A stretch of 52,899 nucleotides of DNA, counting the filler, from Bipalium vagum (taxonomy: Eukaryota), in the NCBI GenBank assembly GCA_037834085.1. It is 3 parts of 3 records of this genome, joined end to end, with 100 filler letters (N's around TTAATTAATTAA, not from the genome) between each part and the next. Parts side by side here need not be neighbours in the genome. Positions count along the whole stretch, not along the records: positions 1 to 16,501 come from JBBMKC010107973.1; 2 more parts are not named here. One strand, written 5' to 3'. The stretch's first letter is position 1; each line of letters starts with the position of its first letter. Positions 1-52,719 of this stretch are shown here, piece after piece. A program made the position numbers and the translations under genes. Below the pieces are notes generated by a model. The model had not been told where the DNA came from. It did not search any database and saw only the letters and a program-made list of their open reading frames with translations.

Positions 1-245
1 AATAATAATTGGTTATTATCCAATTCCACCAATACTATGTATCAATACTCCAATGTGACATGAACTTTTTCATTTTGTAAATATTTTTCCATATTATTAT
101 TTTGAAATATATTTATATTTATTACTTTATATTAGTAATAAAATAGTCTATATTAACGAATAACCATATATAGCCTTATTAGACCATTTCTCGTGTATAT
201 GAAGGAATTCGTTGATTATAATATCATTTGCTTATTTGTATATTA

Positions 246-600
246 TTAGGTGTAAAGTTGAAAATGACGTTCTTATAAACGATAATCCCATTTATTAATA
301 TAAATCATTTTAATATTGATGTAAAACATTTGTTTATATAATACTTTTCACGCGCTATCCTTGAAAATATGTCTGAGATCATAAAAGTAAGTATAATGTA
401 TAAGTTTTGTCAATTAATGTGTCTTAATTTCAGCTAAATAAATATCATTTGCGGTACGCAATATTTCTTATCGTTCTGGTTACAAGCGGATTCCACTGAC
501 AAAGAAGTCCGAGTCTTTTGACACAAACCAATCATTTTTCAACATCTTCACTGAAAGTAAAGCATTCTCCAGAGAGAGTTAAAATATTTTGTAGAGACAA
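246..600 (-). mobile_element. Mariner remnants (terminal repeat plus transposase C-terminus)
   Basis: Mos1-like TIR ta|ttaggtgtaaagttgaaaatgacgtt at 246; the minus strand reads EDVEK..DWFVSKDSDFFVSGIRL..PER. Confidence 0.6.
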
Positions 601-969
601 AAGTTCTTCAGATTTTGTTTAAAACTTTTGTTATTTTGAATAATTTTTTTAAACATATTATCGAGATATTGAGACTTTAACTTCGTGAAAAAGGGAGTAG
701 TCATAGCTGTACAGCTAATATATTATTTAGTTATTGTTTATATTTTGTTGATGTAGTTTGAAATCAATTAATTCTGGCCTGTAGCTATATACATTCCTAT
801 AATACTTTCCCTTTATCAACAAATTTTATTTCTTTAATATTCTGTAACCTCTTTTCGATGTACAAAGTTTCAATGTATTTTATATAATTGGTATTTATCT
901 CTCATTTTCATTCACGCTGGACTCTTCAGGCTAACGATTTCAACGAGATTAAAGAGAGAACAATGTGTA

Positions 970-1255
970 AATATAAAAACCTTTGGTTGTTTGTTAAGGT
1001 TTTCCATAACATAAAGTTATTATGACCGTTTCAGTAAGCCAATAATTAGAATGGAAATATTTCCGTAAGAATTATGGAGATAAAAGGCAAATCCTTCAAA
1101 GAAAAGATATATTTGTTAAGAAAATCATTTCCAAAGTGACAAGTGTTCACACTAATCTTCCTTCATCTATGGCGTCAATATAATAGTTCTTTTTTGCATA
1201 CTGCTCGTCAGACAGCTCTTGAGATCTGAAATTAAGAGCTAACTTGAAGCACATG
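970..1255. repeat. About 285-bp direct duplication, copy 1 (partner 7012-7295); covers the peptide exon and its 3' UTR
   Basis: Base-by-base near identity (over 90% by eye) with 7012-7295. Confidence 0.95.
1147..1225 (-). CDS. Paralogous prepropeptide terminal exon, SQELSDEQYAKK-NYYIDAIDEGRLV-stop (may be an orphan or pseudo-exon)
   Basis: Four nucleotide differences from 7187-7265, frame and acceptor intact, same mature peptide; a repeat element is inserted about 50 nt upstream. Confidence 0.6.
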
Positions 1256-1274
1256 GTTATTTATTTGTTATCAA

Positions 1275-1545
1275 TATAAGGATTGGTTCGAACAATTAGT
1301 TTGCTTTAATTTTTTAAAATAAGGATCTCACCCCTAAATTAACGATTATAAATGTTTTTAATTTAAAGTTTTAAAAATTATTAAGTTACGGTTTTGTAAA
1401 TATTTTTAGTTAAAATTTTAAATAAAAATGGCACAAAAGATTTTGATAGATTTTTATAAAGTAAATAATTTAGTTTTAAAAGATAGTGAGATCCATTTTT
1501 GAAAAGTTGGTTTAAGTGATCGGATTTAATGAAATATTTTATTAT
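1275..1545. mobile_element. Non-autonomous interspersed repeat (MITE-like), related copy at 49938-50225
   Basis: Shared blocks tataagga.tggttcgaa.aattagt, ctcac.cctaaattaacg, gtgag.tccatttt.gaaaagtt.gtttaa...atcggattta.tgaaata. Confidence 0.65.
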
Positions 1546-2091
1546 TGATTTGATATCCCATATATATATATTATTTTAAATGACAACACAAGAATATAAC
1601 TACCGATATAACGATAATAATGATAATAAAAAATAAAATAAAAATAATTTTAATAATAATAATAAAAATAAAAAAATCAATATACTTTGCAGCATACGAT
1701 AAAAAGGTAGAAAGACTAAAAATATGAATTATGAAAAATAAAAATTAATTGATCAACTAATTGCTAAATGTACCCTCAGTTTATAAATCGCAAAAATCTG
1801 AAAAATTAATAATTTTATTAATGACTGTTGATTGAGCACAAGTACTAAGCTTTAATTAATAACAGAGGTTGTAAATTATAATTTTTATTTACATTTTATA
1901 ATTATTAATTATCTGGAAATTCTCTAATTGTCGGTATTGTATTTTTAGATTCTTTATTTTGTTAATCTTTATTCAATATTTAATTTATTATTATTTTTAT
2001 AGTAAAAATTTTTAAAAATAAATTAAAATTATAATAAATAATCTTTTTTCATAATTTTTAACATTTCATCAGATTTTAATCATCTAACGAA

Positions 2092-2251
2092 NNNNNNNNN
2101 NNNNNNNNNNNNNNNNNNNNNNNNNNNNNNNNNNNNNNNNNNNNNNNNNNNNNNNNNNNNNNNNNNNNNNNNNNNNNNNNNNNNNNNNNNNNNNNNNNNN
2201 NNNNNNNNNNNNNNNNNNNNNNNNNNNNNNNNNNNNNNNNNNNNNNNNNNN
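2092..2251. other. Assembly gap (160 N)
   Basis: Run of N. Confidence 1.
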
Positions 2252-2984
2252 TACTTTTCAATGTCAGATTTTCATTTCATTTTTGTTTGCTAAGCAAATC
2301 TTTCGCCAAATCATTTTCAATAGACAAAAGTTTCCTTTGAAGAATTATATTTAACAAATAATGTAATCAGTTTTCGTTTTTTCATCTTATAATAAGTTTT
2401 TTGTTAAATTTAAATCTTTTAATGCTTCATAAAAATAGTTTCATTTTCATGTGCAAGTCTGACCTTTTACAATTAAATCACAAAAGAAAACAAAACAATT
2501 TTGTTTTAATTATTCAAAAAATTACATAATTTACAAAAATAAAATTGAGTAAATTGACATTTTTTTTGTATCGAAAACAAATAATTATTGATTTTTTTAT
2601 AAAAATTTAACTTTTATTAATTAACATTGATTGATTTTAACATTTTAATTTCCTTTCAAAGCATCTGACGGTAATTTTCTAGTCATGTAATATTTTTTAC
2701 AATCAATTTAAGTTACTGTGTTAACTGATATTTGTATTACATCAATTACAGTACGAGGAGAACCACAGATTCGGATCACTGGTAAATGTCCTTGATCGAA
2801 AGGTCAGTGGCACATTCGAGAGATTAAGGTTGGCTAAAGTATTTCGTGCACTCAACTTTACTTTGAGAATTTGAAGCATTTAGGCGCAGGGAAACAACAT
2901 GTGCCAATCATAGGAAATATATTAGCATACAGACAGGTTCTATTTTCGAGAAATATCGATTTCATTTAAGTACTGGTTTGAAGT

Positions 2985-3990
2985 TATTAGGTGAGTCAGA
3001 AAGTAACCGCGTTTTCCTAATTTTTAAAATTACCGTATTTTCAGGTACATAATACGCACATGTGTATCATAAGCACGTGGTTTTTAAAAATTTTATTTCA
3101 CGCCTTAAAAAACATTTGTATAATACGCTTTAATATATAATACGCATGAATTGGATCTGTTATATCACAATATTTTAAATGTTTAAATATACCATTTTTA
3201 TATTATATAATATTCTTATATTAAAATATAGAAAATATTTGTTTTAATATTAAAATTAAGTATTTCAAATTTATTAATGTTATTATAATTCTTACTATTA
3301 AAACAATTTAAATTATTATTTTTTAAAATACTTTTTCATAAGTAACTCATTAATAACTCATAAGTAGCGACTGAGCATATGTAAAAAATCCTCGACTGTA
3401 GTCCTACTACAGTTAAGACCTACTTACATATGATTGGAAAGTCATATAAGGCGGGTGACTGAGTACCCCATGAATCTACCGAAAAAAATTAAGCTGTTTG
3501 ACTATCTTTTTGTCAATCACTGATTCTGAAGAACAACAGTGATCCGTTTCAAATCAGACAATTGATGGCAACAAAAACTGTGATCAATTTGACAAATTAA
3601 ATAACTTGATTAAAATTTGTCCATCTTCATTAAACAGAAAAGGTGTCATTTTTCATCAGGAAAATGCCCGGCCACACATCTTGAAGATCACATCTAAAAA
3701 AATTAAAGACTTAGGATGGAAAGTTATCGCTCAGCCATCATATAGCCCAGACATTGCTCCACCAGATTTTCACCTCTTCAGATCTTTGCAGCACTTCTTG
3801 CTTGGAAAAAGATTTCAAAATGAAGATCATATCAAAAAGGAGATCCAATCATTTATTTATCCAGATCCATTTATTATTGACCCTAAATATTCCTCGTCAT
3901 TTGAAAAACGGATGAAATGCTTGGTTGACAAGTGGCAGACTATAGTAAAAAATATATTTTATTGTTTTATTGTATTATTATTTATTGGTG
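2985..3990 (+). mobile_element. Decayed mariner transposon, interrupted at about 3031 by a Tc2/pogo-like end
   Basis: TIR-like ttaggtgagtcagaaagtaaccgcg; *VPHES (WVPHEL), HQENARPH, YSPDIAPPDFHLFRSLQ; stops and an internal deletion; taccgtattttc...taatacgcac end at 3031. Confidence 0.9.
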
Positions 3991-5169
3991 TAATATTGGT
4001 ATTTTTTATTGGAGGAAAAAAGGTAAAAGATCCGAATTTAAGTACAAAAGATAAACAATTTTAATAATTTTAAAGATTTACACAAGTAAATTGTAAAGAT
4101 AGGCGCACTTTTAAACAAACCGCAATGAAAAACATTTTAAAGAATAATAAATGTGAATACACAAAAATACACTTTAAATACAAAAGTTGTTTTTAATTTT
4201 ATATTATTATTTATAAATATTGGCCAGGCTTAATGCTATCAAATATATAAAACAAAAAATATGCAAAAAAAATAATATCATTTTTTGTTATTAAAAAGTT
4301 GGAAAATATTGATAAAAAAATCGACTTTTTTTTATTGATAAATTTTATAATTTATTTTTTATTTTTAAAAAATTTTTTAAATAAAATTTTTGGCTACCAG
4401 CACCGTAGATTACTGTGATGAGGGAATTTTATTTATATTTTAAAATACTTTATATTTTTGAATAATCAGATTACGAATTGAAGATAAGGCGGAATAACGT
4501 AAACTGAGAAAGAAATAAAATAATAATTGATATTATCAAGTATTATTTGATAATTGATGAACGTTGAGCAAGGCAACAAAACGAGTCGTTGTTCGTAGTC
4601 TCAATTAAAGTTGGTAATTAGAATCGGTTCTCACTCCTGGTCTTCGCTTGCCGGGGCAACCCGACCCATCGATCGGGGTAAAAGAAGCTGAGTACAATGT
4701 AAACGAAGAACAAAATGTTTTCAGATGCATCAGAAACATTTGGGGATTTTAATTACATCAGTTTTCTCTTAAATACCAATGGTATATTATTGAAAAACCA
4801 TGAAAAAAGGTCAAATGTACACAGACCATTAAAACAAGCAAGCTTCACGACTAAACACATTTTCATCTTTAATTAAAAATATGCGGAAGAAATAAAAAAA
4901 AACTTAAGAATGTGTGGGGAGACTAATGATAAATAAGTGAAAAAACATTTTTAAAAAGTAAATCACCGCCAATGAAATGAAGAAATAAATATATAAAATG
5001 TTTTCGTAGGATTTGTTTAAATTTTTAAATTATTTATTTATTTATTTCACAATAATAAAATACAAAATCTTTTAATTTAACTTTATGTTTGTGAGGGCGT
5101 TTAGAAACGTTTTGAAAGCGACGGGATTGGTTTGACAATACAGCAAAACTGTAGAGGTCATTTTAATAT

Positions 5170-6250
5170 TCATTTCGAAACAAAAAAAATTATTCAAAAT
5201 AATGGACATTGTTTCACACATTTCTTCCATTTTCCAGTCAATGTTTGGATGCCATCCCAAAAAAAAACTTTTCTGGTTTCGAGGCGAACTATCCAGAGAT
5301 CTCAGTGTTGTTTAGCAAATCTATGTGCCATTGAACGGAACAGGTGAAAATCAGAAGGATCACGATCTGGTAAATACACCGGGTGGGTGAGTACTTCCTA
5401 TTTCATATCTTTTAACATACTTTTAACTGCTTTAGAATTGTGAGGCGCTGCGTTGTCATGTAGAAGAATTACTATTAACTATTAAAGACTGATTCAGCCG
5501 GGCTATTTGGTTTTTGTATCTCTCCGAACTAACACTTTCACTTGGTTGAGAAGCTCATGGTACACAACACCTTGATGAACCCATGCTTTGGGATTTTCAA
5601 AATAGATTCACTTTTCATCTCCTGTCAATAGTCGATGAAAGAAAAACTTTCTTTCGTGTCGTTGTAAGATCATGTCACTGACTACTTTTCTGTTTTCTAG
5701 TTGTCTTTAATTCAGTAGATGAAACAACCATTTTCCTACCTTTAAAATCCTACCAATATCATGTAGAGTACCCGATAATTGCTTGCTGAGTAACACATAT
5801 TCTTATGGCAAGTTGATTTTGCGATTGACAGGTATCTTCATCCAATAACTTTTGTAAATTTTGGTTTTCAAATTTGGAAGTACGGCCTGAGCGTTCTTTA
5901 TCCTTTACACTGAAATCATTACTTCTGAAGCGGTGAAACCAAAGTTCGTGTGTGTCCTGAGATACTACATATTTTCCATAAACATCGTATAATATCCTGC
6001 AGCTTTCTGCGGCAGTTATGTTCATCATGAAGTAATGAAAGAGAACTAGTGTTCTTTGCTTGGCTTAAGTGATGACATATTTAGATCTAAAAAATTTGAA
6101 ATTTTTAACATATTATGAACATATCAATGATTGCCCTATAATCAGATATTATTCAAACAAATTGATTTATATTTCATTTCGCAATTATATTTCGATATCT
6201 CACTAAATCTATTTTAAATAAATCCGCATTATTTATTTTATCTCTTATAT
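5170..6250 (-). mobile_element. Decayed mariner, Mos1/mauritiana-like
   Basis: AESCRILYDVYG..WFHRFRSNDF..KERSGR, TGDEK*IYFENP, LLHDNAAPH, PSDFHLFRSMAH; several stops and frameshifts. Confidence 0.9.
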
Positions 6251-6372
6251 AAATGTTTGAACTTGAACGTTGAAAAACGACATTTATTTCTGACCAACCA
6301 ATATCATTTCCATAAATAAACTTATTTTTTTAACTAGACATATTTATTTGACTTGACGGGATTAATTGTAAA

Positions 6373-7013
6373 ATGGAAAAAATTGAATATCGAGGAATTA
6401 TAAAATTGTTTGTCCTGGAAGTGATCCACAAGGTGGGCTTTGAAACTTAAACAAGTTCATACGGTGATTAAAGCTGATCCACTGACATCAAAAATCATTC
6501 AAGAAATCCATGATATAGGGTTGGATGATCGATGGATAAAAGTGAGAAAAATATGTTCTGCCACAGGCATTTCAGTAGAACGCTTAAGGTATTATTTGCA
6601 TGAAAACTTAAAGAAGGAAAATCCTTGTACAAGATGGGTACCGCATCTGCTTACAATCGCTTGCGATAAGGATAAGTGTAAAGAACTTGGATGAGAAATC
6701 GTATCTCGTCCACCATATTCGTCAGACACGGCGCCATTTGATTTCCATTTATTTAGATCGATGGTACATGGACTGTCAAAACGGAGCTTTTGCAAATATT
6801 TTGTAATATATGAAATTCTATTTTGGCTTGATGAATGAATTTTATCTAAAGAAAAAAATTTCTTTTACAATGGCATTCACAAGTTACCAGAAATTTAGAC
6901 CAATGTTATTGCTCACAATAGGAAATATGTATAAGATAATTACATGTTGTGTCTTTAAAATAAATGCATTTATTTTTTTAAAAAACTTCCGCAGAATTAA
7001 CTGCTACACCTAA
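6373..7013 (+). mobile_element. Chimeric or deleted mariner (Himar1/irritans-like N-half joined to a mauritiana-like C-terminus)
   Basis: MEKIEYRGIIKLF, DDRWIKVRKI, RWVPHLLT, then PPYSSDTAPFDFHLFRSMVHGL, FFYNGIHKLPE and TIR ...ctgctacacctaa|ta. Confidence 0.8.
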
Positions 7014-7295
7014 TATAAAAACCTTTGGCTGTTTGTTAAGGTTTTCCATAATATAAAGTTATTATGACCGTTACAGTAAACCAATAATTAGAATGGAAAT
7101 ATTTCCGTAAGAATTATGGAGATAAAAGTCAAATCCTTTAAAGAAAAGATATTTGTTCAGAAAATCATTTTCAAATTGACAAGTGTTCACACTAATCTTC
7201 CTTCATCTATGGCATCAATATAATAGTTCTTTTTTGCATACTGCTTGTCATAGAGCTCTTGAGATCTGAAGTTAAGTGCTAACTTGAAGCTCATG
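7012..7295. repeat. About 285-bp direct duplication, copy 2 (partner 970-1255)
   Basis: As above; the left edge abuts a mariner terminal repeat at a TA. Confidence 0.95.
7187..7265 (-). CDS. Paralogous prepropeptide terminal exon, SQELYDKQYAKK-NYYIDAIDEGRLV-stop
   Basis: ttcag|A phase-2 acceptor, TGA stop; mature peptide 10/13 identical to that of the 13.6 kb gene; upstream exon(s) uncertain. Confidence 0.72.
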
Positions 7296-7528
7296 TTAAC
7301 TGTCTATTTTTTAAAAATATTATCGATATAATAGTTAGCAAATTGAAGTGAAAGTACATGGTCACTTCTTTTGAGAAATAGTGAAATTATCACTTCTGTT
7401 ACCTGATATCAAATTGATCAAATACATATTGCAGAAAGTGGTCAGAAAGTGTATTCAGCTAGTACGAGACTACATTGAAAAATAAATTGTTTTTATCTTT
7501 TGATTTTGTTGTTTTTATATTTATTCAC

Positions 7529-7651
7529 CGTACTTTTCAACCCACTCTCATCCATGTCATCCACATAATTTTTATTGATGGAATAATGGATAGGTTTTCT
7601 TCTAAGAGAATTCTGTCTGAAAATCTTTTGGATTCGTCTATTCAAATAGAA
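7529..7651 (-). CDS. Candidate diverged prepropeptide exon FYLNRRIQKIFRQNSLRRKPIHYSINKNYVDDMDESGLKST
   Basis: Pyrimidine-rich ttttctcctag acceptor, plus an internal phase-2 ttttcag|A acceptor at 7617; gtgaat donor. SLRR and NYVDDMDESGL echo ALRR and NYYIDAIDEGRL of the paralogs. Confidence 0.45.
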
Positions 7652-8559
7652 CTAGGAGAAAATGTGATATTTCTTGTGTTATTTTAAAAAATATTAAAAC
7701 ATTAATATTTCCTAATATTTTATATTATATAATCATATAATTTTAAATCTGTTTATAAATGTAATGAGATCATTTCAACGTTACTTATTTCAAAATATGA
7801 TTACACTTCACACAGTCATCTTAAATTAAACATTTTAATGTTGTCCGGGTTTTTGTTTCCTACATTGTATGGGGTGACTAAGAAAGTCCTCCAAGTATAT
7901 TCAAGCCAAAACCTTTGTATCCTTAGTCTATTGATCTGATATGATCATTCATTCCTAAACTAAAAGGAATACTCTCCAAAATGTTAAATGGAAATTGGAC
8001 GAAAAATTTACAAATAAAAATTGAAAACAATTTCCAAAAATAAACACGGAAACTTTATTAAAATTTATCAAAAAACGAAATAAATTAGAAAAAAACCCAA
8101 AACCAAAATTGGTTTTATCTAAGCAAGATAAATTCAATCGGAATTCAATTACAGAGGTCAGGATTCGGTTTAGGTTTTATTAATCTGGGTCGATATCAAT
8201 TGTCCCCGTTCCTTCCATTGTAAATTATTTCGTGGGCAGATAGATTAGCTTACGTTAATTAAAATGAGGAAATTGATAAAGCCCACCATGTTTCTGTGAT
8301 AAAAGTGAATTAGAGGTTTGAGGATTTATTATGAAAACCCATCAAATAATAAATGGATCAAAGTACTTTACTCAACGTCGAATATTTTCTGGGAGGATCT
8401 TTTGAAAACTTTAATTAAATTAAAAAGTATTCACTAGATCCGAATATGTACATAATGAAGCAGGGGAAAGTTTACTTCAGTTACCCCAAGCCTCTGGGAG
8501 ACATTGATTTTGAACAAAGTTTTGATAAATTATTAGCGGTATGCATAAGTTTCCATCGT

Positions 8560-9707
8560 TTAAAGACAAAATTTTTATTGATATTTTGATTTGTTCAATA
8601 AGTCAATACGTTTTTATTGAACAATTTAGGATCATTTATTTAATATAACAAAGTCTGTGGTAGCTTCATTATTCCTCACAGATACAAGTCTCTCTCTGCA
8701 AACAACCTCTCAAGATCTTGTTTATAAACGTATACCAATAAATTAGTTCTGAAGGGAGCTAAACAAATGTAAATCGGAATACACATGGTCTGGATTATAA
8801 AGGTGACTGTGACAATGCATCCCACTCAAGCTCGAGAAATATTTGGCGAAACAAATTGTGGGGAAGACCACCATTTTTCAGTTGACCAGCTCAAGATTTT
8901 TTTGTTGGATGGAAACAGTAGATTTCTGAATTTATATTTTTATTCGTAAGGATTTTCTTGTAGTAGACAAGTCCCTTCCAATCCTATCAGATTGAAAGCA
9001 TAGCCTTCTTCTGGTGAATATCTACTTTTGCTTGCGTCTCCTGTGTTTTATCTTCTTTTAGACGAGCTTCTTTTTCTGTAGAAATTATTGTAAACTATCC
9101 ACTTTTCTTCCCCCTTAATCATGCGCCTGAGAAATGGGTCGCCTTCTTTGAGTTTCATGAGTTGATTGCAAATATCAATTCGATTGACTTTGAATTTCTT
9201 TCAATTCGTACGGAACCCAGACATTCAATTTTTTGATGAAATTAGCTGACTTTTTATGACCGTGAATGGTTCCAACGGATAAATTTAGAGCACTCACAAT
9301 TTCTTTGACCGTCGAATGACTATTTACTTTGATGACAATCGTAACAGGTGTGCCAGGCCGATGAAAATCGACGAAGGAAAACTTTTCAGCCACGGAACCA
9401 CTTCTGGTATTGTCTTTATTCACATTTTCGACATAAACTTTCATTATTTTTTCTGGCCTCAGTGGTTCCTTTTCCTATTTTGAAGTAAAAGAACAAAATT
9501 TTCAGTATATGCTCGTCAAAGTTCTCCATTTAAAATCACTATAAAAACACAAAAATTTTAAAAAATGAGGGTCAAAATGTACTTACATTTCTGTTTTTAA
9601 TGTAAATTATGATGTACTGTAGTATAATGACACATTAACACTAAAAATAATTGGAACCATTTACACTTCTAAAAATAACGGACTGACTTATTGAAAAATC
9701 CAATATA
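8560..9707 (-). mobile_element. Decayed near-full-length mariner
   Basis: HILKILFFYFKIG, WVPYEL, EKWIVYNN, HQKKAMLSI..DWKG, SDLHLFSSLQN; TIR-like end at about 9680-9707. Confidence 0.85.
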
Positions 9708-9714
9708 AATAACA

Positions 9715-9855
9715 TGGTACATTTAATCAAAATATTTCCCATCATGATTAACTAATTTTCCCATCTTTCTAGCCAAAGATTAAAATATTCGGTGAAAAAC
9801 TTTTTTGGGCATGGTTTAAGTAAAATCGACTGATTTTCTGCACCTCTTCAAAACT
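9715..9855 (-). mobile_element. Mariner C-terminal fragment
   Basis: FEEVQK...KLVNHDGKYFD. Confidence 0.5.
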
Positions 9856-12800
9856 ATAATGTACAACAGAAAAACTATGTGGCCTGGTAAATTATGGATA
9901 CCTTTAATACTTCTACTAAAACCTACCTAGTCAATCTAAAGGGACTGACTGTTTTCTTGACATTGTGTAGTTAAGTGTTGTTCAATTCCTCACTTTAAAT
10001 TCTTAATTAAAAATTCAACTAATTTTAGTTCTGTTGAGATGACAAATATTGTGTCGGTATCATTGCAAATATAAACTTATGTCAGTTAGGAGAAATGAGA
10101 AAGATGCAGTTATATATTTAAATGCTGCAGACCTCATATGTGGAATAATGCACATAATGTCTTAAGTCTCATAACACCGTTATTAGAAATAATTTACTCT
10201 ATCGTCATCTGTGTGCGTAAAAATCAAAATTTGATCCATATGCTTATTTTCATACACGTGTTGTTATAATGTCATTCTTACCAATAAGTAGTAAAATAAT
10301 ATTTTTTAAAAGAATACCAATAAGTCAGGTCTGAAGTGGTAAAGTTATTAACAAAATAGAAAAACTAGTACGCAACGGTTCACTCACAATATAACACTAA
10401 TCTTATTTATCAGTAAAACGTTTATCAAATAACATCATATGAACTTGTTGAACAAGTAAGAGTCGGAGGAAGGGGTTCCTTAAAACAAATCCCAAATAGA
10501 TTGTAAGAAAATATTTTAACCAGTACCTGAAATTTCCAAAACTCATAGGTCTTTCTGGTTTTAGAATTACTTATGTTTTATTGCTTATTAAATCTTAGGG
10601 TCTGTTAAGTAGTAGTGAAGTTATCAATTATCGGAGGGATACAATGGGAATTTATTCAAAGTCTTAGTTCAAAAGTGAAAGCAAAAAGACGTTATATTTT
10701 ACAAAAGACAAAAATTAAAGGTAACAAAGGACTTTTATTCAGTTGAAAAAAAAATTATTATAATAGTCATATATGGTGATCTTTTTTGAATAAGCAAACC
10801 ATAACAAAAAGATATGGAACAATTAAACAGATTTGTATTTTATTCGACCAAAGATTTTCTCCTCAAAAAATCAATTTGGACATGATGGGCACCTTTTTAA
10901 TTATTAATTTTTTTTGTTTGAACCTGCCAATGTTAGCATTATGCTAATTCTGAGTATGATTCCCTCATTTAAACAGGCTCCTATTAACATAATAAATGTC
11001 ACTTGAGGTATTCTATGGTACATAGGATGGATAAAACGTTCCCTAAATACATAATTATCCATAAAAGTTTTCTCCCTGGTTTCCCTTCGTTGAGGTCTAA
11101 AGTTTTGTTTTATTGATATTTCTTGCTTTATAAAAATCTTTTATTAAACCAATCTGGAAATTTACCTTTGCAAAAAAAAATTCGAAATAATAATAATATT
11201 AAAATGAAAATGAATTTTTTGCAACATATTTTCATTTTATTCAAATTTAATCAAATTATGATAAAAAAAAGAAAAAAGAAAATTCAATATTAAATTATCA
11301 ATAAAAGAAAAAGAAAAATATTCTGCTGGATAAAGAGTAATGAAATTTCAAAGACATTGTCAAAAATATAAAAGAAAGGATAAGTAATATTTTAAACGAA
11401 TATATTTAAAAATAATATAATAAATTTTGTTTTGCAGCAAAGAGAAAAATGCCTTTGGTTAGCGTCAAGTCTGAGATTTCCATTAATAAATGTTTTAATG
11501 AAATGAAATGCTCACCAAACATGCAAATGATATGGAAATAATTCTTAATATTCGAAAATTCTATTCAAATCATACTATCATCCGCATTATTAAATCAGTT
11601 ATTTTTTCTCCATCATTAATAATATTTTGTTTAAATAAATTAAAAAATATTTTTTATATTTTTCTTGTACTAATCACAGTTGACAATATGGATTTTTTTT
11701 CTGAAAATTATGTTGATTAATTAATTGAAAATTAAATTAAAAAAATAATTTTATTAAAAAAAAAATTTTTTAATTTAATTTAATTTAATTTTTTTAAAAA
11801 ATATTTTTGTTAAAATATATTTTATTTAAAATAAAATAACCAATTAAAAAGTTGAATAATGTGGGTAGTATTATAAATTAAATAAAATAAATTAAAACAT
11901 AAAACAAATAAAATTGTAAACAAAAATAAATAAATAAAATTATTGATTTTTTCAAAAAAAAGAGAAAAATGTCTTTTTATTTAGGAAAAACAATTATTAA
12001 TTAAAATATTAAAATAAATATAAATATAAATACCCCTTAGTTATATTTATATTTATGGAAATAAAATAATAAAATAAAAATAATTCTTCCATTTTAATTT
12101 ATTTTTCTACTGAAAATTTCTATGTTTTGATTTTTTCTATTTTTAAAAATCTTATCAAATATTCATAATTTAATACAAAACTATTTTACATATAAATGAA
12201 TTTAATGAGAGAAAAATTGAGCCTTTTTATTCATTATATGATCCCATTTCGATTTTTCTTAGTGTTCGATCAGAAATTAAATTTTGTTTTTCTGCGAAAA
12301 AGTACATTTTTAAATTTTTTATATTTTTCGTTTCTCTGTAAATAAAATAAATCTAATCTAAATAAATATAATAAATCTTCTTTGGGCTGACACGCCTATT
12401 TTTAATTTAATATTTATCCATTTGTAAATCCTTCATTATATACAAAAATAATAAAACAAGATCATTAAATAAATGGATAATCTAAATAATTTATAATAAA
12501 GGAAATCAATATGTTTAAATCAGATAAAAAAGATCACGTGAATACAGAAATAATAATATTAATAAATTATTTTCGTATTGTATGTATTAACCTAATAAAG
12601 AAATTAATATAAAATAAAACTATATAAATTAAAATAATTATTATATGAATTAAAAAAAATATAATAATTTTAAAAATAAAAATATTTTCAAATTATTGAA
12701 ATGATGTATATAAAATTAAATTAAAATTTTTTAAAAAATTGATTTTTTTTATTGGTTTTAAAATATTTAATCACACTTTGTTTTTTGGGAAAATGAAAAT

Positions 12801-13563
12801 TATTTCATTTTGTTGTAACCTTCATTTGTTTTAATATTCAAATTTAGAATTACTCTGAATATTTTGATCATATAAAGATTTAAATCGAATTAATTAAAAA
12901 TCAAACTTAACAAAATCAACTTTTCGAAACGATTTATAAAAAAAATTTTAAATTGTTAAATTAACCTGACAAGTAAAAAAATAAATAATTTTAAAAAATA
13001 TGTATAATTATATTTAATAATAATAATTCATAGTAAAATTAATGATATTTTAATTTAAATCTCTTATTTATTTTTCAATTATATTAGAGTAGATTTCAAA
13101 ATATAGAAGATGAATTTCCTGGAGATTTTAAATTTTAAATTCTTTTTTTTGTTTAAACTAAATTAACTTTATGTTCATTTTCTTTAGTCCAAAAATATTC
13201 TATTTTTTCATATTAAATTTTCATTCAGCAGTAGAGTCGACTTTCTTGTCGACCTTTACGTATCTCATACGAAAAGTGATTTATAAAGACGTTTACTGTT
13301 TAAAGTAAAATAGTCTACCAATGTTGACGGATATTTCCATCTTTAACCTTTCAAATGAAGCATTTAAACAAAATTTTGAAAAATGTCATAATCAATTAAA
13401 AAATGTTACACATTCCAAAACATACTCTAACATAAATATTAACAAAAACCAAATTATCCATTTTATGCAGTAAAATAGAAACGCCTACTTTTTCTTTAAT
13501 TAATAAAGAAAAAGGAAAGTTTAAACAACAAAATGATCTTGAAAAAACAATTGGTGACGAGTG

Positions 13564-13771
13564 TTACCTTTTAATCAGTCTTCCAGCGTCTATTGCGTCT
13601 ATATAATATGTCCTTTTGGGAGCCGTCTTGACGTAATCTCTTCTCAGGGCATACGGCTGAGCTTTTCTGAATTGAATATACTCATTTTTATGTCACTCAA
13701 TCAATCAGCACTCACTGGAAAATAAAAGAAATCGTCAACATGATCAGTGAAAACCGGAAAAATATGTTCAT
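13564..13771 (-). CDS. Small secreted prepropeptide (putative neuropeptide precursor), 52 aa, complement(join(13564..13666,13716..13771))
   Basis: ATG at 13771; 49-nt gtgagt...ttcag intron (13667-13715); TAA at 13564-13566. Protein MNIFFRFSLIMLTISFIFQKAQPYALRRDYVKTAPKRTYYIDAIDAGRLIKR has a hydrophobic signal peptide and RR/KR sites. The peptide is conserved, with synonymous changes, in paralogous exons at 7187-7265 and 1147-1225. Confidence 0.85.
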
Positions 13772-14124
13772 CTTTATCTTTAATTTTTTGTTTTTATTAA
13801 TAGAATTTATAAGGTGGCTAAAATAATGAAATTCTATTTATTAATGAAATAGAAATAATAATCCGCCAATGAAAAGCTGTCCATTTATTTCAGGATATTT
13901 AGTGGTCAAATGTCATTTCTGCTCATGGGGGACTTTAGCTTTTGGACTTAAATGGGATATTAAGTATCTATAGAAGAAAATTGTGTCAATAAAAATTGTT
14001 TCAATGTTTTCAGATTTATTTTTTATATTTATATTTTTATGTAATTTTATTAATTATCAAAATTTAAATATTATTTATTATATTTTTTGCATTACTTACT
14101 TTATTAATATTTTTTTAAAATTAC

Positions 14125-14790
14125 CATGTAGTGGTTAATTCCCACAAAATTTGACAGATGAAGAAAATGGGTTAAATGTTTCCAAAAATGTTACAGAAAT
14201 TTAACAGACCTCGTTCAAATTTAATTTACAACATATCGGTTGATAAATGTGGGTTTGTTCGTTTGACCCTAAAAGTAAACAAAAATTCACTGGTTGGGTA
14301 TTTGAAGACATATCTCAATAAACAAAAGTTGTTTGGTTCCACAGAGATAAATAGGAAATTATTGAATATTTCCTCGTTTTTAAGAGACACTTGGAAACGA
14401 TAACTTAAGCGAATCAAAGGACCATCAAGGCTTAATGGTATTTAGAAGTTTGCTTACCTCATGTGATTTCCAAAATTAGAAGCAATAATCGAAATCTATA
14501 AATTATTCGTCATCAAGACATACAAATCTCATACAGTCCGTCAAACCATAGATATCACAGCCATTAGAATCTGTAATTAATGGCACAGCCTGTATTCACC
14601 TGACTTATGACTTCTTTATCTCTAAACTATCAAAAAGAAATTACGGGGTAAGCAGTTCTCGTCACTTGAAACAGCTTTTAAAAAATTCAAGGTTTTCGTA
14701 TCTAAACTTAAGAATAAAAAAAAATTCGAAACGAAAATTTGTTCGATCGCATACAAAGGTATGTTAACGTTTATTGGATTGGTTATTTTG
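14125..14790 (+). mobile_element. Decayed mariner transposase fragment
   Basis: IP..LTDEE, KMLQKFNRPRSNLIYNI, WVCSFDPKSKQK..WVFE, YSPDL, KKKLRGKQFSSLE. Confidence 0.75.
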
Positions 14791-15199
14791 CGTTGCTCTG
14801 CAGCAGAATAAGTTAATGTTGGAAAAAAGCTGGTAATTTTCTTTTTTCTTAACACAAGTATTACCTTCTACGATTGTCCTGGGAGATTTATTTCTTACAA
14901 TATATTACAATTTCGTTAACACTTAAACACCAATCAAATGAATTTAAGTTAAGTTGGTGTCGAACTGGGTGGAAACGTCCCATTATTTTACATGATTTTT
15001 CGACAGTTATACATCAAATATTATAAATAATTTAACGTTTGTTTAAATTTGAGCATTTTTAGCTTTTTTTAAAAAAATTTTAATATCAGAAAGTTTTGGT
15101 TCTAGTACTGAATCCGATATTAGTATATCGGATGCTAATTTGAACAGTTTGGTCGTGGTTTGTCATCTATTTGTGACAATGAAAATGAAATTATGTCTA

Positions 15200-16400
15200 C
15201 CTTTACGGAACCATTTGGCAGGTTAAATCTATGTAAGTAGACGCAGAAAAGCATTAAATGCGACGAGAACACATTGATGGATTAAGTGTTCATGGTCGTT
15301 GCAATTGTCGTAATAATGCTACCAGAATATATTTTTTGATTAGACTGCCTTGGAAATTATCCTGGAATGTATCAAAAATAAAACAAATAGTATGCAGTTG
15401 AACTAGTTAGATATATTGGATTGACTATTTTAGTAGGTCTGTACAAATATCGAGAAGAGTCGATAAAATCTATATGATCAAAAGCAGAATGGCGAAAATG
15501 CATAAGCCAGCTTATTATTTGATACAGATTTGAATTAATTACCAAATATATCAGATTTGACTTATGTGGAACCATACAGAGAAGACCTCTTGTCTGTGAA
15601 AGTTCCCATCGATGGGATGTTCTATAAATGGGACCAAAAGTTTTCTAATCACTTTTAATATGTCACTGTTGATGAAACGATTGTGCAGTTCTGAGTACGG
15701 AGTTTCAAGCAGTATATACCTAAAAACCTTCAAAACATGGTATATAGTTCTAGCTCCTTGTGATGAATCAATTGAATAATGTCTTCGAATAATGCATTGT
15801 CTCGGAAAAAATAATGAAACAAATCGACCTCCAGCCAACAGTTCAGAAGAACAAATGTTTTTGGCATTTACGATCGACCTTGTCACAGACATTTTTTTAC
15901 TTCACAGAATCTCTTACGAAAACTAGGTGTTCATAACTTGGGTTTCGAAGGAGTAATATGAAATAATCACTAAGAACCTCCGAAAGAGTTTGTCTACAGA
16001 AAAAATAGGGCTGGTTCATAGATTTTTGGTGTCAGTGCAAATGCAACTTTGATTTCTTATGCGCCTGAAGATAACAGACAGTGGCACTACTGTCAAGTGT
16101 TTATTGATAATTTGACAAAGCAATCATTGATAATATTGGTAAATATTGGGATGATCATTTGGATCAAATGTTGAGAATGCGAAATTAAAACATCAAGATG
16201 GCCAAAATATGTATTTTAACCAATGATTGGTGTCACATCGTTCAACTCAATTTTTCTTTGGCACGAGATCAATGGGCATAAAAACGGAAATCGAAGACAA
16301 TTTCTAAATATACTTGGAGCCGAACTATGTGAAAGTGAATAAGATGATCACGGTTGTATGTACTTTACAAACGCACTTCCTCAATGTAGAACTCCTAATA
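15200..16400 (+). mobile_element. Decayed piggyBac-family transposon
   Basis: YVTVDETIVQF*VRSFKQYIPK.PSKHGI, VTD.FFTS, ATLISYAPEDNR.VALLSS, DHLDQM, SRWPKYVF; many frameshifts. Confidence 0.85.
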
Positions 16401-16501
16401 AAGGGTGGTCAAGGTTTTATTTCCCGATGTTCAAAGGTAAATAAAATTTGAACTGAATGAAATTTTTTAAAACTTTCTTTGGAAATACAAAGAACACAAA
16501 T

Positions 16502-16601
16502 NNNNNNNNNNNNNNNNNNNNNNNNNNNNNNNNNNNNNNNNNNNNTTAATTAATTAANNNNNNNNNNNNNNNNNNNNNNNNNNNNNNNNNNNNNNNNNNN
16601 N
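16502..16601. other. Scaffolding gap: 44 N + TTAATTAATTAA + 44 N (artificial spacer)
   Basis: Exactly 100 nt, six-frame stop linker, identical to 33714-33813. Confidence 0.98.
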
Positions 16602-16810
16602 GTAGAATTGCGGAAGAAAATCCACTTTTCGTCCCCTGTAACAATTCTTTTCCAAAATCGAATGTCTTGTGGATTTGTAAGTAGTTTATGGAAAACTTCA
16701 ATTCGATGCTTACTTTGATTTTCTGTTAAAATGTGTGGAACTCATACTCAAACAACATAATACATTGAATAATTTATCTAAAAGTGATCGGCAGCCGAAA
16801 AATATAAAAT
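16602..16810 (-). mobile_element. Mariner fragment truncated by the gap
   Basis: *VPHILTENQSKHRIEVFHKLLTNPQDIRFWKRIVTGDEKWIFFRNS. Confidence 0.85.
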
Positions 16811-17689
16811 GATCTAAAAGATTATTTATTCGTATATCAATTTAAAATCACAAAAAACAGCAATTTGGTTTTTAGCTTGTTTGCAGCTAAGAAATCCTTA
16901 TTAAATGAATTAAATTAATAATCCCTTACAGTAGTTCAAAGACTATGTAAAGCTGTATCCTTTTTTTAAAAATGTCATATTTTTCAATGAATGTAGGATA
17001 GAACTGTTCTACAGAAGAAGAAAATACATCCGCAGACAACAAAGATCCAGATATGATCCTAAAGAACCCTCAGAAATTTGGTACTGTTTACGTTTAATTG
17101 TTTGGGAAGACATTGATTTTATTTCTCATCTTGCCAAAATAGACATTTACTTTCTGAGATCTATTTAGTAAGAATTGTTTATTTTCTACTTCAGGAGAAT
17201 CAACCTGTCTGGTCGTTATTTATGAATTCAATTCATTAACTCATTTAATAGATAATTGACTTGCATTTGATTTGATTAGCTTGTTTTATATTTGATTAAA
17301 ATTATTATTATTCTCATTTGCTTTGTGCTGCCATTTCCATAGTGAATATTTTATTTATTTACAACAATTTACAATAACATAATCAATAATCTCAGAGACT
17401 ACAATAAATGTTCAAAGGTCACAGAAAATATTAACATATCTTTCAAATATCAATAAGATCAAATGTCAAAATGTTAATGAAAAGTTAATAAAAACAAACA
17501 AGAATAAATTTTTAATTAAATAAATGTCAATAAAATTAAAGTTAAGGTTAACTCAAAAAATTAAAGAGCCCTCTCATCCTAAGCGACAATGAGGCCAAGG
17601 ATCGTCCGCCTACGGATTCCCAAACTCGATAGGTTCCATTGTAAAATCCTATTTTAAATTGGCCATAATATTAATAATGTTTACAAAAA

Positions 17690-17830
17690 ATTCTTTGGAT
17701 AATCTTCTTCCTTGTCCTGGTCTCAGAAAAACAAAATTTTCTTCTTATTGATTAGATAAAACAAAACCAAAAATATTTGAGCTATCTTTTTTTGTGCGAA
17801 TTTCTTGATTGAAATCTTCACCTTATATGA
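17690..17830 (-). mobile_element. Tc1-like N-terminal (HTH) fragment
   Basis: KKIAQIF...RPGQGRRLS motif. Confidence 0.4.
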
Positions 17831-18025
17831 TCTTAGAGATTGGTCTATGACTGCTAATCTCGAAGTTTGAAAAGCTATTTCCTATAATAGCCCATTAATT
17901 CCAATATGTGTCAGCTACTTAAAGACAAAAATTGATATTAAAGATAAGTAATTTTTTTAATGAAAAGAATGTATATTTTTAAGCAATATTAGAAACTTTA
18001 TTTGTTTTAAGTACACAAGTTTTAT

Positions 18026-18210
18026 TTATTCAATAAAATCGTCTTCAATGTCAAATACAGCTTCAAGACGGCTTCTGAAAAGCTTAAAAGCCATGATCAA
18101 ATGGTTTTTGTTCATATTTATTATAGCAGAACTTATAGAAGCCCGTAATGAATCTTTGGTATTATGAGGATGTTTGTTCGTCTTCTTCTCTACGGCGCCC
18201 CATACGATAC
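18026..18210 (-). mobile_element. maT/DD37D-type transposase C-terminal fragment
   Basis: VWGAVEKKTNKHPHNTKDSLRASI...FRSRLEAVFDIEDDFIE. Confidence 0.75.
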
Positions 18211-21031
18211 ATACACTCTTTGACAAAATTATTTGCCCATTGTATATTAGAATGAATATTTTTTTATATTTTGTCATCATTATGCGTCATAATAAAACAA
18301 GGATATTTAACACAAAAATACTTTATTTAATCAAATAAACATTATGACATTACGAACATTCCAATGCATCCCCATTTGACTGAAATATCGACCTTCATTA
18401 ACATCAAAATTTAATCAATTACAATAATATATATAATATACAGATATATGTAATGGGCAAATAATTATGTCAAAGAGTATATATATATATTTATATTTAC
18501 TTAAAATATTTATTTATTTTTATAAATGAAAATTATAATTTGATATTGTTTTATTATTTAAAACATTTTAGTTTTATTTTTCATATATTGAGTAAAGAAA
18601 TGATTTCTTATCTTATTGATCTAAATTCGGATATTTCAATTATCCCAATGATGGGGAATCTTTAAGATTCTTTCATATTTTGTACGATATTGACAAATAA
18701 AAGTTATGGTAAGACTTTAATGTGATGCTGTATAATTATTTAATATAATTACTTCTGCTATAAATCATAAATAAATGTCATCATATTCGATTGAAACATT
18801 GTGATTTATTAGATCCAGCTTTGCTTATGAATATTAATAGTTGTCAAACGTAATATTTGATAGTTTTTCTTGTAAAAGTAATTTTAACATATTTTTTAAT
18901 AATTTTTGAAACAATAATAAATCTTTTCACTTGAATCTATTAATTGGTTACGGGTTTCTTTTATTAATAATAAGTGAAGATATATATTTTTAATTTTTGG
19001 AAACTTCCTTTTTATAAATCTGATATAATTATTAATAATACGCTCTGTTAAGCTCATATTAAGCCTTTATAAGAATAAATCGCAAAAATAAAATATAATT
19101 AATTTTACTTATCTTATTTTTATTTATAAAAAAATTTTATTTTTATTATATATAAAAAATTTTATGAGTAATATAGAAAATCTAAATTTGTGAATTTCTT
19201 TACTTAAATAATAACTGTTAAAACCTTTTAGAAAATCAAATAACATTTTTTTTGGAACTTAATATATTATTTATCTATATTCTTTACATTTTGTATTTTT
19301 AAATTTTATAATTTCTGGTTTAATTAATGGGTATAAAATTCTCAAAAAGGATAAATTAACCCATTTCATTCCAGAATTCAAAAGGACAAAGAAATTTGAT
19401 TTACTTAGTGTATAATAGTTTATAGTGACCTATTAAGTTTCATAAAATTAAAAAAAATGAGATGAAATTTGAAAAGAAAATTGCAAAGTAAAGTGTATTA
19501 ATGCGCAATTAAAATATATTGCCTCTGTAGTGATTTAAATTAAGTTATATTTAGTAAAATCTTCAAATAATGTGTAAATTTCAAATATTAGTTTGAAAAA
19601 TGGGATCAATAATCATTTTACTTGGAACTTCCATTTAAAAAAATTTAAAACAGGTATTTTATAATCAAACAAACATTTTTTATTCAATTATCCAATTCCG
19701 TGAGGGTTGATGATGATCTAAACACAGTTTTTGTATTTTTTCACCATTCTTCAAACATATTACTCATTTAACTATAGGTATTGTTTTAATGCTTTCTTAT
19801 ACTTTTAAAATTCTTTTTAAATTCTCACAAATTTGTTTAAATGAAAGTGAAATTGTACAAATACCTGTTTCAATAATATTTATATTATTCATAGTTTACA
19901 ATGTGAATAAATAATTGTTTAAACTGCTCTAATTTTTTTAAAAAAATAAAAAAAAATTTACAAAACAAGAAATAACTTGGGACTAGACTTTCCGGAAAAA
20001 TAAAAAGGAAATATCAGAGCTTAAAAAAGATCCCACGTAATTAACTTTGAACTGAATAAAAATGAAAATACGGTAGCTTTTTTCTCGTTAAATGTACACT
20101 TTTAAAACTTTATATATTATAATAGTTACATATTTTTATTAATGTAAATATTATTTAACCTTCATATTTCTATTTAAACTTATCATTAAAAAATTAAAGA
20201 TTAAATATATAAAAACTATAATTAATAATTTATTTGTGAAACAAAGTATGTCAACATCTCTATTAAAACAATGACAATTAATTCTTCACATTGGAAATGT
20301 AATTATAAAATATATGATTTATTTTATGTATGATAATAACTTTGTAATAATAACAAAAAATATAAACCCTATAAAATCAATTTAGATAACAATAGTAAAA
20401 AGTTCGAGATTAATTGATAGATTAAGACGAGTAGATAATAAAAATATAAATAATTAATAGTTACAACAAGTTTTACTTTTGTCTTTATTGACCTTTATTT
20501 TTAATATTTATTACTTTATTATTTTCAGTACTCCTTATAAATCAGTGTATTAAGATTGATGTTTGAAAGGTAAAAGCAAGTGGCAATATATATTTGCACT
20601 ATAAATTCAATTGAGAAATAAATAGTAAACATTATGTCTACATTAAATAACAAAGAGTTTTTTCACAGAATGTTGTTTCAACAAATATAATATAAATATT
20701 TTCACAATTAAAATATTTTGAAATAAATAAAAATGTTTACAGGTACAACGGACAAAATTGTCAATAAAAGCTGTTTGCACTGTCAATTTTCAAATAAAAA
20801 ACGAAAGTAATCAAAATATTTCACATTTATTCTGAATAAAAAATTCATAAAATATTTTTATCTAACTAGGTTTCTTTTAATTTTTTATTATAAAAATCTA
20901 CGAAGGGTACGAAGTCTTTTATAAACCTTCTTAATTGAATATTGGTATGAAGGAGTTAATAGGATTATAATTAAATGATGATTAAATGATCATTATAACA
21001 ATGCTTATTGCCTTTGAGTATTTAATTTATA

Positions 21032-22111
21032 CTACCTCTATTCAGAAATGATTGTCCGTTTTTATGCTTTAGTTAGCATAAGAACATTAATTATTAACTT
21101 ATCTTTTTTTACTTTATTTTATTTATTATGATCATAGCAAGCTGTGCATTAATTTATATTCTCTTAAGTCACGTTTTCTTTGCATAATATGGTCTAAAAA
21201 TTTCACATTTTGAAAAATTTAAAATATGTTTTTATTATTGAATTATCAATTTTTTAAAAAATTCAAATTTGAAAAGATGGAATCATGTCAACGAAAGAAA
21301 AACCTGTCTGATGATCAAAGAAATGGTATTATACAATCTCTCCGTAGACTAGAATAGAAAATTTGATGGTAAGATTGGTATTTGGCCTCTTGTAGAATAT
21401 GTACCTGCAGTACGTAGCTCAAAGAACCGGTCAAAAGGGACAATTGTAACAAAACCAATTGAAGTAAATAGAGAGATTTACACTAAACTTATAACTGAAA
21501 AAGTAATTCCTGCAATCAAAAGCAAATGGCCAGAGAACAACAAATCCATTCAAAAATAGATTCAACAAGACAATGCTCGTTTTCATGCGAAAGTTGATGA
21601 TGACAAAATCCAAGAAGCCGGCCACATAGATGGGTGGAATATTTCCTTAATGTGTCAATCTCCTAATAGTCCTGATTTTAATGTACTGAATTTGGGATAT
21701 TTTAATTCTATTCAATCTCTTCAATACCAACACTCTCCAAAGAATATCGATGAGCTCATTGATATAGTTCAACGTTCCTGGGAAGAGCAACCGGTGGAAA
21801 AAATTGAGAATATATTTTTGTCGTTCCAAACAGCATTAGAATCATCAATGCTAGTTGAAGGTGACAATACTTATAAATTACAACACATTGGCAAAGTTGA
21901 GAAGAGAAATGTTGGACGATTTCCTGTAATGTTAAACTGCAGCAGAGGCGATCAAAACTGCCCAAAATTGTTTAAATACAAATTTATTAATTTATTATTT
22001 ATCACTTTATTTATTATTATTACAAATTAATTTATTATTAATTTATTATTATTACAAATTTATTATTATTTTTTTTTATCAAAACGGACAATCATTTCTG
22101 AACAGAGGTAT
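21032..22111 (+). mobile_element. Internally deleted DD39D ('plant-type' mariner) element with both TIRs and a TA target duplication
   Basis: 31-bp TIRs ctacctctattcagaaatgattgtccgtttt (2 mismatches) flanked by TA; FDGKIGIWP, SSKNR, VIPAIKSKWP, QQD-39aa-N(D)LGYF..IQSLQ. Confidence 0.92.
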
Positions 22112-23150: not shown

Positions 23151-23432
23151 AGACTATATATAAGAATTATAAATGTGAGTATTTGAACATATTTTGGAAT
23201 TTTAAAATTTTTATAAAGTGTCTTTTTTAAAATCCGATATGAATATTCATTAATTTAATGTATTAGTTAATTTTAAAATTTTATTTTAATTTTAAAATAT
23301 CTTTTTAAAAAATAATAAGAGACACTTTATTTAAATTTATTAATTTACGCAAATTTGTTTAAGTATTTTTATTTTTATTAGATTAATAAAATTTTTGAAA
23401 TTATGTCTGAATTTATTAAAATAGCTGCTAAC

Positions 23433-33713: not shown

Positions 33714-33813
33714 NNNNNNNNNNNNNNNNNNNNNNNNNNNNNNNNNNNNNNNNNNNNTTAATTAATTAANNNNNNNNNNNNNNNNNNNNNNNNNNNNNNN
33801 NNNNNNNNNNNNN
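33714..33813. other. Scaffolding gap: 44 N + TTAATTAATTAA + 44 N
   Basis: Same structure as 16502-16601. Confidence 0.98.

Positions 33814-33963: not shown

Positions 33964-52719
<18,756 letters not shown>

What the first reader, a model, noticed from the sequence alone, without database searches (positions are those of the whole stretch)
1150..13611. Purifying-selection signature concentrated in the mature peptide
Seen: between 13573-13611 and 1150-1188 the peptides are 10/13 identical. Four of the identical residues use different codons (ATA/ATT, GCA/GCC, GAC/GAT, CTG/TTA), while the pro-regions barely align. Between the two young copies the peptide has one change, which is synonymous (GAC/GAT), and both amino-acid changes (S/Y, E/K) fall in the spacer. 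A motif cact[c/t]gtca follows the stop in all three. Inference: the peptide, rather than the DNA, is what is conserved, as expected for a receptor ligand.
Basis: seen in the sequence. Interest (0 to 1): 0.7.

Follow-up and report, generated by a model that had tools for sequence, protein, structure and literature searches.

The report
Tandem one-peptide pedal-peptide-like genes
Three neighbouring copies of a tiny gene in a probable flatworm encode a 13-residue peptide that likely belongs to the pedal peptide/orcokinin neuropeptides; the oldest pair keeps the peptide through mostly silent DNA changes, which is ordinary for a neuropeptide, and one copy has lost its own start.

Summary
The counts are right; the inference holds only in part. 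Three minus-strand copies encode TYYIDAIDAGRLI (13573-13611) and NYYIDAIDEGRLV (7190-7228, 1150-1188) behind dibasic sites. Between old copies, selection on the peptide is supported: pS 0.77-0.88 against pN 0.15; random placement of the same 11 changes keeps 10 of 13 residues in at most 0.3% of trials; the six alignable pro-region codons look neutral. The young pair adds nothing: one change in 39 nt fits the 3' flank's rate (P=0.38). 'Peptide, not DNA' overstates, since the non-coding motif after the stop (10 of 11) is better kept than the peptide's DNA (72%).

Copy 3 is a complete two-exon precursor gene. Copy 2 has a plausible but weak first exon. Copy 1 has a dispersed repeat where its first exon should be and is likely truncated. 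The neighbouring CaMKII groups with Dugesia. The peptide resembles spiralian pedal peptide 2 and planarian PPP peptides, with orcokinin-B spacing. Single-peptide precursors are unusual for this family. No ortholog or receptor was found, and my look-ups found no earlier scan note of this gene on other DNA. Modest interest.

The parts
13716..13771 (-). Copy 3 exon 1: ATG plus 18 codons with a hydrophobic signal-peptide-like stretch, phase-2 donor CA|GTGAGT
   Evidence: signal peptide judged by hydropathy only (best 9-residue mean 2.7)
13667..13715 (-). Copy 3 intron, 49 nt, GT-AG (predicted)
   Evidence: short CaMKII introns in the window measure 52, 54 and 48 nt
13564..13666 (-). Copy 3 exon 2: pro-region with RR and KR sites, peptide, KR, stop; the spliced precursor is 52 aa
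13573..13611 (-). Copy 3 predicted mature peptide TYYIDAIDAGRLI, no amidation glycine
7301..7359 (-). Copy 2 candidate exon 1 (model A): ATG plus 19 codons, hydrophobic, phase-2 but weak donor CA|GTTAAC, followed by a 35-nt intron (7266-7300)
   Evidence: likeness to copy 3 exon 1 is not significant (p 0.17 protein, 0.43 DNA)
7403..7427 (-). Copy 2 alternative exon 1 (model C): 8 codons, strong phase-1 donor, 124-nt intron to an acceptor at 7279
7187..7265 (-). Copy 2 exon 2: spacer, KK, peptide NYYIDAIDEGRLV (7190-7228), stop
1147..1225 (-). Copy 1 exon 2, frame intact, same peptide (1150-1188) as copy 2; no first exon of its own found
1266..1590 (.). Dispersed repeat (77% over 292 nt to 49939-50227) abutting copy 1 where its likeness to copy 2 ends
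970..1277 (.). Segment shared by copies 1 and 2 (91% to 7012-7320)
13555..13565 (-). Conserved 3' motif AACACTYGTCA at the stop (also 7177-7187 and 1137-1147)
6900..7017 (.). End of a high-copy repeat (mariner-like by its neighbouring ORF remnants) that cuts copy 2's 3' flank about 170 nt after the stop; a second high-copy repeat begins at about 7446
   Evidence: mariner likeness of this stretch is recalled from motifs, Pfam gave no transposase match for 6425-6691

Best explanation
This is a small tandem cluster of three gene copies that likely encode single-peptide neuropeptide precursors of the pedal peptide/orcokinin kind in a probable flatworm, and the mature peptide shows an excess of silent over amino-acid changes between the old copies. 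Copy 3 would be spliced across a 49-nt intron, enter the secretory pathway by its signal peptide, be cut at Lys-Arg on both sides and release a non-amidated 13-mer that likely acts on a G-protein-coupled receptor, by analogy most likely on muscle or locomotor circuits (inferred). An old duplication separated copy 3 from the ancestor of copies 1 and 2 (synonymous sites saturated), and both lineages kept the peptide. A younger duplication (about 5% divergence) made copies 1 and 2; repeats then likely removed copy 1's first exon and cut copy 2's distal 3' flank, so copy 2 is probably a working gene and copy 1 probably a truncated one. Shown: sequences, frames, substitution pattern, repeat positions. 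Inferred: splicing, secretion, cleavage, family, receptor, function, host.
For: Copy 3 anatomy: ATG, hydrophobic stretch, GTGAGT donor, 49-nt intron like the window's CaMKII introns, in-frame exon 2, KR on both sides, stop. Selection: pS 0.77-0.88 against pN 0.15; P(10 or more of 13 identical) 0.0004-0.003 over 6 settings of 40,000 trials; third-position excess P 0.017 and 0.005; pro-region pN 0.42-0.57. Family: nemertean pedal peptide 2 precursors hold peptides such as YIDALGSDLL, FMDPIDEGLL and MLDRVGGRLL (PMC8557429 supplement part 21); planarian PPP-1 holds YSYYDSIGSGLL (PMC2953531 Table S5); Tribolium SLDGIGGGNLVG has the same four-residue spacing (PMC4237046). A loose pedal-peptide pattern hits only the three copies in the window, and 6 of 200 shuffles once (pattern written after seeing the peptides). 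Host: the CaMKII exons group with Dugesia, support 96/95. Letters specific to each young copy occur in the one sequencing run's contigs.
Against: No homologue found in any protein search and no Pfam family at cut-off, so the family call rests on a by-eye motif comparison, not a profile score. The pedal peptide 2 and PPP peptides I read have three residues between the core aliphatic residue and the terminal pair, and complete precursors carry several copies; here there are four residues and one copy. PPP-1/2 peptides mostly have Ile-Gly where these have Ile-Asp. Copy 2's donor is weak and its 35-nt intron is shorter than the other four measured (48-54 nt); hydrophobic ATG-to-GT stretches are common in this DNA (12 phase-2 candidates on the control strand). 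Only 1 of 39 tree rows is a named flatworm and it is a long branch. Copy 1's frame and acceptor are intact, which a dead copy need not keep, though at 5% divergence this is not significant (P 0.37).
Confidence: 0.68

Rival explanations
1. One alternatively spliced gene: the signal exon of copy 3 (or of copy 2) is spliced to the downstream peptide exons as alternative last exons, so copy 1 is a working exon and not a pseudogene, as insect orcokinin genes make A and B transcripts.
For: All three peptide exons lie on one strand downstream of copy 3 exon 1, each with a phase-2 TTCAG acceptor, and the joins are in frame. Distances of 6.5 and 12.5 kb compare with CaMKII introns of several kb. Copy 1 keeps its acceptor and frame and has poly(A)-like signals at 838 and 830. 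Alternative splicing of orcokinin genes: PMC4237046 passages.
Against: Shared phase and acceptor follow from duplication alone. Copy 2 has a candidate first exon of its own. Copy 3's 49-nt intron with a perfect donor should splice locally. No selection is measurable on copy 1 since the young duplication.
Confidence: 0.1
2. A real neuropeptide family under selection, but lineage-specific and unrelated to pedal peptides; the likeness is convergence on a short acidic-aliphatic pattern.
For: No database homologue; spacing and copy number differ from pedal peptide 2 and PPP; none of the peptides in Schmidtea Table S5 matches closely. Short motifs recur by chance: the peptide's 11-residue core also sits inside an unrelated long ORF in one metagenome contig.
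Against: Aromatic-aliphatic-Asp start, Asp-x-Ile core, terminal aliphatic pair directly before a dibasic site and lack of amidation all match pedal peptide 2; nearly every position is attested in some nemertean variant.
Confidence: 0.17
3. Copies 1 and 2 are two haplotypes of one locus placed in tandem across the assembly gap at 2092-2251, or all young-copy features are relics of a dead duplicate.
For: A 160-N gap lies between them; they are 91% alike; only one sequencing run holds the stretch and it may be the assembly's own source.
Against: Their flanks beyond the 308-nt shared segment do not match anywhere in the window. Contigs with each copy's letters have depths of 19-31, like other contigs laid (21-29), though the tool warns that depth is no copy number.
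Confidence: 0.05

Closest known systems
Spiralian pedal peptide 2 (nemerteans, brachiopods, phoronids; PMC8557429 supplement)
   Same: Dibasic-flanked, mostly non-amidated 9-12-mers of pattern hydrophobic-hydrophobic-Asp-x-aliphatic ... aliphatic pair; variants with YIDA, IDEG and GRLL occur.
   Different: Three spacer residues against four here; complete precursors carry several copies in one long chain against one copy in 45-52 aa here.
Schmidtea mediterranea PPP-1 and PPP-2 (PMC2953531 Table S5)
   Same: Flatworm precursors; N-terminal tyrosines, Asp-x-Ile core, terminal aliphatic pair, KR/KK processing, no amide.
   Different: Eight and five copies per precursor; Ile-Gly core and three-residue spacer; not a close sequence match.
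Insect orcokinin B / orcomyotropin-like peptides (PMC4237046, PMC6585902)
   Same: Same four-residue spacing, so the peptide aligns without gaps to SLDGIGGGNLVG.
   Different: Gly-rich spacer, large copy numbers, often single-Arg cleavage, arthropod.
Planarins spp-6/7/8/9/17 of Schmidtea (PMC2953531)
   Same: Family of short (about 60-aa) prohormone genes expanded by local duplication, peptide at the C-terminal end.
   Different: Unrelated peptide sequence; an architectural precedent only.

Membership tests
Neuropeptide precursor (general) | N-terminal signal peptide | tested here: inconclusive
   Hydropathy only: best 9-residue mean 2.7 (copy 3) and 3.0 (copy 2 model A); none for copy 1. No signal-peptide predictor was run.
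Neuropeptide precursor (general) | Peptide flanked by dibasic sites or by the stop | tested here: met
   KR...KR-stop in copy 3; KK...stop in copies 1 and 2.
Neuropeptide precursor (general) | Expression in neurons and processing to the mature peptide | not testable with these tools
   Needs RNA or peptidomics.
Pedal peptide/orcokinin superfamily | Hydrophobic residues at or near both termini (PMC5069636, PMC5814872 passages) | tested here: met
   Tyr-Tyr-Ile at the N-terminus, Leu-Ile/Val at the C-terminus; not phenylalanine as is typical.
Pedal peptide/orcokinin superfamily | No C-terminal amide (stated for starfish members, PMC5814872) | tested here: met
   No glycine before the KR or stop.
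Pedal peptide/orcokinin superfamily | Precursor with multiple related peptide copies | tested here: not met
   One copy per gene; a loose pattern finds 3 hits in the window, one per copy.
Pedal peptide 2 / planarian PPP | Asp-x-aliphatic followed by three residues and an aliphatic pair | tested here: not met
   Four residues here (DAGR, DEGR); three in the peptides read by eye (not counted by script).
Pedal peptide/orcokinin superfamily | Profile or cluster-level similarity to family members | not tested
   No family member was among the fetched proteins, so no profile was built; Pfam gave no match at cut-off for 3 of 3 queries.
Pedal peptide/orcokinin superfamily | Shared receptor | not testable with these tools
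   PMC5814872 (2017) says the receptors remained to be discovered; one later search listed 1 paper, not on this point by its abstract.

The most novel reading that the evidence does not exclude
A flatworm branch of the pedal peptide/orcokinin family that has traded the many-copy precursor for one peptide per exon, with a single signal-peptide exon spliced to alternative, tandemly duplicated last exons, so that the 'headless' copy 1 is a working cassette and ligand variants are chosen by splicing.
Probability: 0.1. Interest if true: 0.55.

Novelty: new variant of a known kind. Interest (0 to 1): 0.3.

Why it matters
Purifying selection on a mature neuropeptide with a drifting pro-region is textbook (established knowledge), so the signature itself is not surprising. 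What is of some use: a peptide not found in my searches, in one-copy mini-precursors, in a family whose precursors are normally many-copy and whose receptor was still unknown in the 2017 paper read. Two natural variants that kept 10 of 13 residues through saturated silent change mark the residues worth testing in receptor or muscle assays. The conserved 11-nt motif at the stop is a small unexplained extra.

Tried and rejected
Homologue searches: copy 3 exon-2 frame among 23-74 aa proteins gave no candidate; the three-copy alignment among longer proteins gave 0 of 89 candidates at E 10 or better; a profile over 1.84 billion representatives gave 1 hit at E 0.001, a repetitive protein matching only the spacer, rejected. 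These searches are weak for a 13-residue motif. Pfam: no match at cut-off. Rfam on 1-20000: 0. Metagenome DNA pattern: 1 match, inside a long ORF with no dibasic sites, taken as chance. Literature search for four peptide strings: 0 papers; main texts only, so supplements could hold them; Thiel 2021's supplement lacked IDAID, DAIDAG, AIDEG and GRLIKR. No RNA holder listed. No remnant of copy 2's exon 1 beyond the repeat upstream of copy 1 (the 160-N gap could hide one). Unspliced 35-codon ORFs from an ATG in copies 1 and 2 lack a hydrophobic stretch (means 1.3 and 1.0) and were rejected as precursors, although silent changes are in excess over that ORF (4 against 3, post-hoc p 0.019), which gives weak support to model C. 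A microRNA site in the 3' motif was considered from recalled seed lists and not supported; no call tested it.
Full report
Observation. The window holds three minus-strand copies of a short reading frame and no fourth within four substitutions. Copy 3 (13573-13611) reads TYYIDAIDAGRLI; copies 2 (7190-7228) and 1 (1150-1188) read NYYIDAIDEGRLV.

Selection between the old copies. Copy 1 and copy 3 differ at 11 of 39 nucleotides, 7 of them at third positions (8 of 12 for copy 2; hypergeometric P 0.017 and 0.005). Nei-Gojobori counts give pS 0.77 and 0.88 against pN 0.148. dS is saturated, so dN/dS cannot be given for the peptide alone; with the dibasic pair included it is about 0.09. Placing 11 changes at random keeps 10 or more residues in 0.04-0.3% of trials (six settings, 40,000 trials each). 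The other five frames give 5-7 identities. In the six pro-region codons that align without gaps, pN is 0.57 and 0.42 and pS about 0.5, and pN exceeds the peptide's (Fisher p 0.004 and 0.039). The test is small and anchored on the peptide, but the frame is fixed independently by the splice sites and dibasic sites. Purifying selection on the peptide after the old duplication is supported.

The young pair carries no signal. Their 3' flanks differ at 9 of 170 sites. At that rate one change or fewer in 39 nt has P 0.38, and no replacement change has P 0.18. The motif after the stop matches at 10 of 11 positions, reached by 0.7% of shuffles, and occurs exactly only at the three stops. It is non-coding and better kept than the peptide's DNA (72%), so it is no evidence for 'peptide rather than DNA'; I infer a constrained 3' element or a relic of common descent and cannot say which.

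Gene anatomy. Copy 3 is a complete two-exon gene by prediction: ATG at 13771, a hydrophobic 18-codon exon, a 49-nt phase-2 intron with a GTGAGT donor, then pro-region, KR, peptide, KR, stop, 52 aa in all. Short CaMKII introns in the window are 48-54 nt. Copy 2 has a candidate exon (7359-7301) in the same phase, but with a weak donor and a 35-nt intron; flukes have an intron peak at 37 nt (PMC6530080, passages), so this is possible in flatworms. An alternative (7427-7403, phase 1, 124-nt intron) has a better donor and a poorer signal stretch, and copy 3's intron end aligns somewhat better to that acceptor (p 0.002 against 0.019). Copy 1 shares only 970-1277 with copy 2; from about 1270 to 1590 lies a dispersed repeat with a second copy at 49939-50227. 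The donor seen in copy 2 is absent, and no remnant of the first exon was found upstream. Copy 2's 3' flank is cut at about 7017 by a high-copy repeat. Letters specific to both young copies occur in the one run that holds the stretch, which may be the assembly's own source.

Host. A CaMKII gene lies at 33965-49371 on the plus strand. Over 220 residues its highest identity is to gastropods (88%; Dugesia 86%), but it shares 13 minority residues with Dugesia against 9 or fewer for the ten other rows checked, and the tree joins the two at 96/95 (39 distinct rows from the 81 of 120 hits that covered all exons; Dugesia is a long branch and the only named flatworm). A flatworm host is likely, not proven. 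Earlier scan notes on other pieces of this genome say the same, which is not independent proof.

What the peptide resembles. Database searches found nothing. The literature gave the lead. Schmidtea PPP-1 and PPP-2 release non-amidated peptides such as YSYYDSIGSGLL (PMC2953531, Table S5 read whole and passages). Nemertean pedal peptide 2 precursors hold YIDALGSDLL, FMDPIDEGLL and MLDRVGGRLL (PMC8557429, passages, supplement searches and part 21 of 387). The window's peptides have one residue more between the core and the terminal pair, the spacing of Tribolium SLDGIGGGNLVG (PMC4237046, passages). Family reviews stress hydrophobic residues at both ends, and for starfish no amidation (PMC5069636, PMC5814872, passages); both are met. 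The many-copy precursor and the three-residue spacer are not. I therefore call it pedal peptide/orcokinin-like (about 0.7-0.75), not a member of pedal peptide 2 or PPP. A loose pattern for the family hits only these three copies, and 6 of 200 shuffled windows once, but it was written after seeing the peptides.

Mechanism. Most likely copy 3, and probably copy 2, make short prepropeptides that are cut at dibasic sites to release non-amidated 13-mers acting on a GPCR; a role in muscle or locomotion is inferred from molluscan, arthropod and echinoderm members and was suggested for planarian PPP (PMC4825013, passages). Copy 1 is probably a truncated duplicate. The rival is that the peptide exons serve as alternative last exons of one gene: the joins are in frame and insect orcokinin genes are alternatively spliced, but duplication alone explains the shared phase.

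Novelty. The selection pattern is ordinary. The peptide strings were in none of the main texts searched; catalogues of parasitic-flatworm peptides that I recall (McVeigh 2009, Koziol 2016) were not seen, nor the supplements of PMC4825013, and they could list a relative. Short prohormone genes expanded by local duplication are known in planarians (Planarins). Verdict: real feature, new variant of a known kind, interest 0.3.

Noticed in passing
window 33965-49371 (+): CaMKII gene, at least 8 exons of the kinase and regulatory region; divergent, groups with Dugesia; the N-terminal and association-domain exons were not found in the window by tblastn.
   Followed up: partly
window 13618-13638 (-): A second possible peptide, DYVKTAP, lies between RR and KR in copy 3; copies 1 and 2 lack the upstream RR.
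   Followed up: no
window 3543-4064, 5759-6064, 6425-6864, 9175-9474, 18026-18286, 21560-22030, 22664-22969: Many broken Tc1/mariner-like ORFs; only 5762-6064 matched Pfam (HTH_48, Mos1 transposase), the rest are judged from recalled motifs.
   Followed up: partly
window 1266-1590 and 49930-50264: A roughly 320-nt AT-rich dispersed repeat, 77% alike between copies, with no terminal inverted repeat found.
   Followed up: partly
window 16502-16601 and 33714-33813: Two gaps have the same odd form: 44 N, a 12-nt palindromic AT filler, 44 N; probably a scaffolding artefact.
   Followed up: no
window 23382-23705 (+): 107-codon ORF that looks like a gag-type remnant by eye; no Pfam match.
   Followed up: partly
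L001 1501-1532 (-): The 11-residue core YYIDAIDEGRF occurs inside an unrelated long ORF in a metagenome contig; taken as chance.
   Followed up: yes
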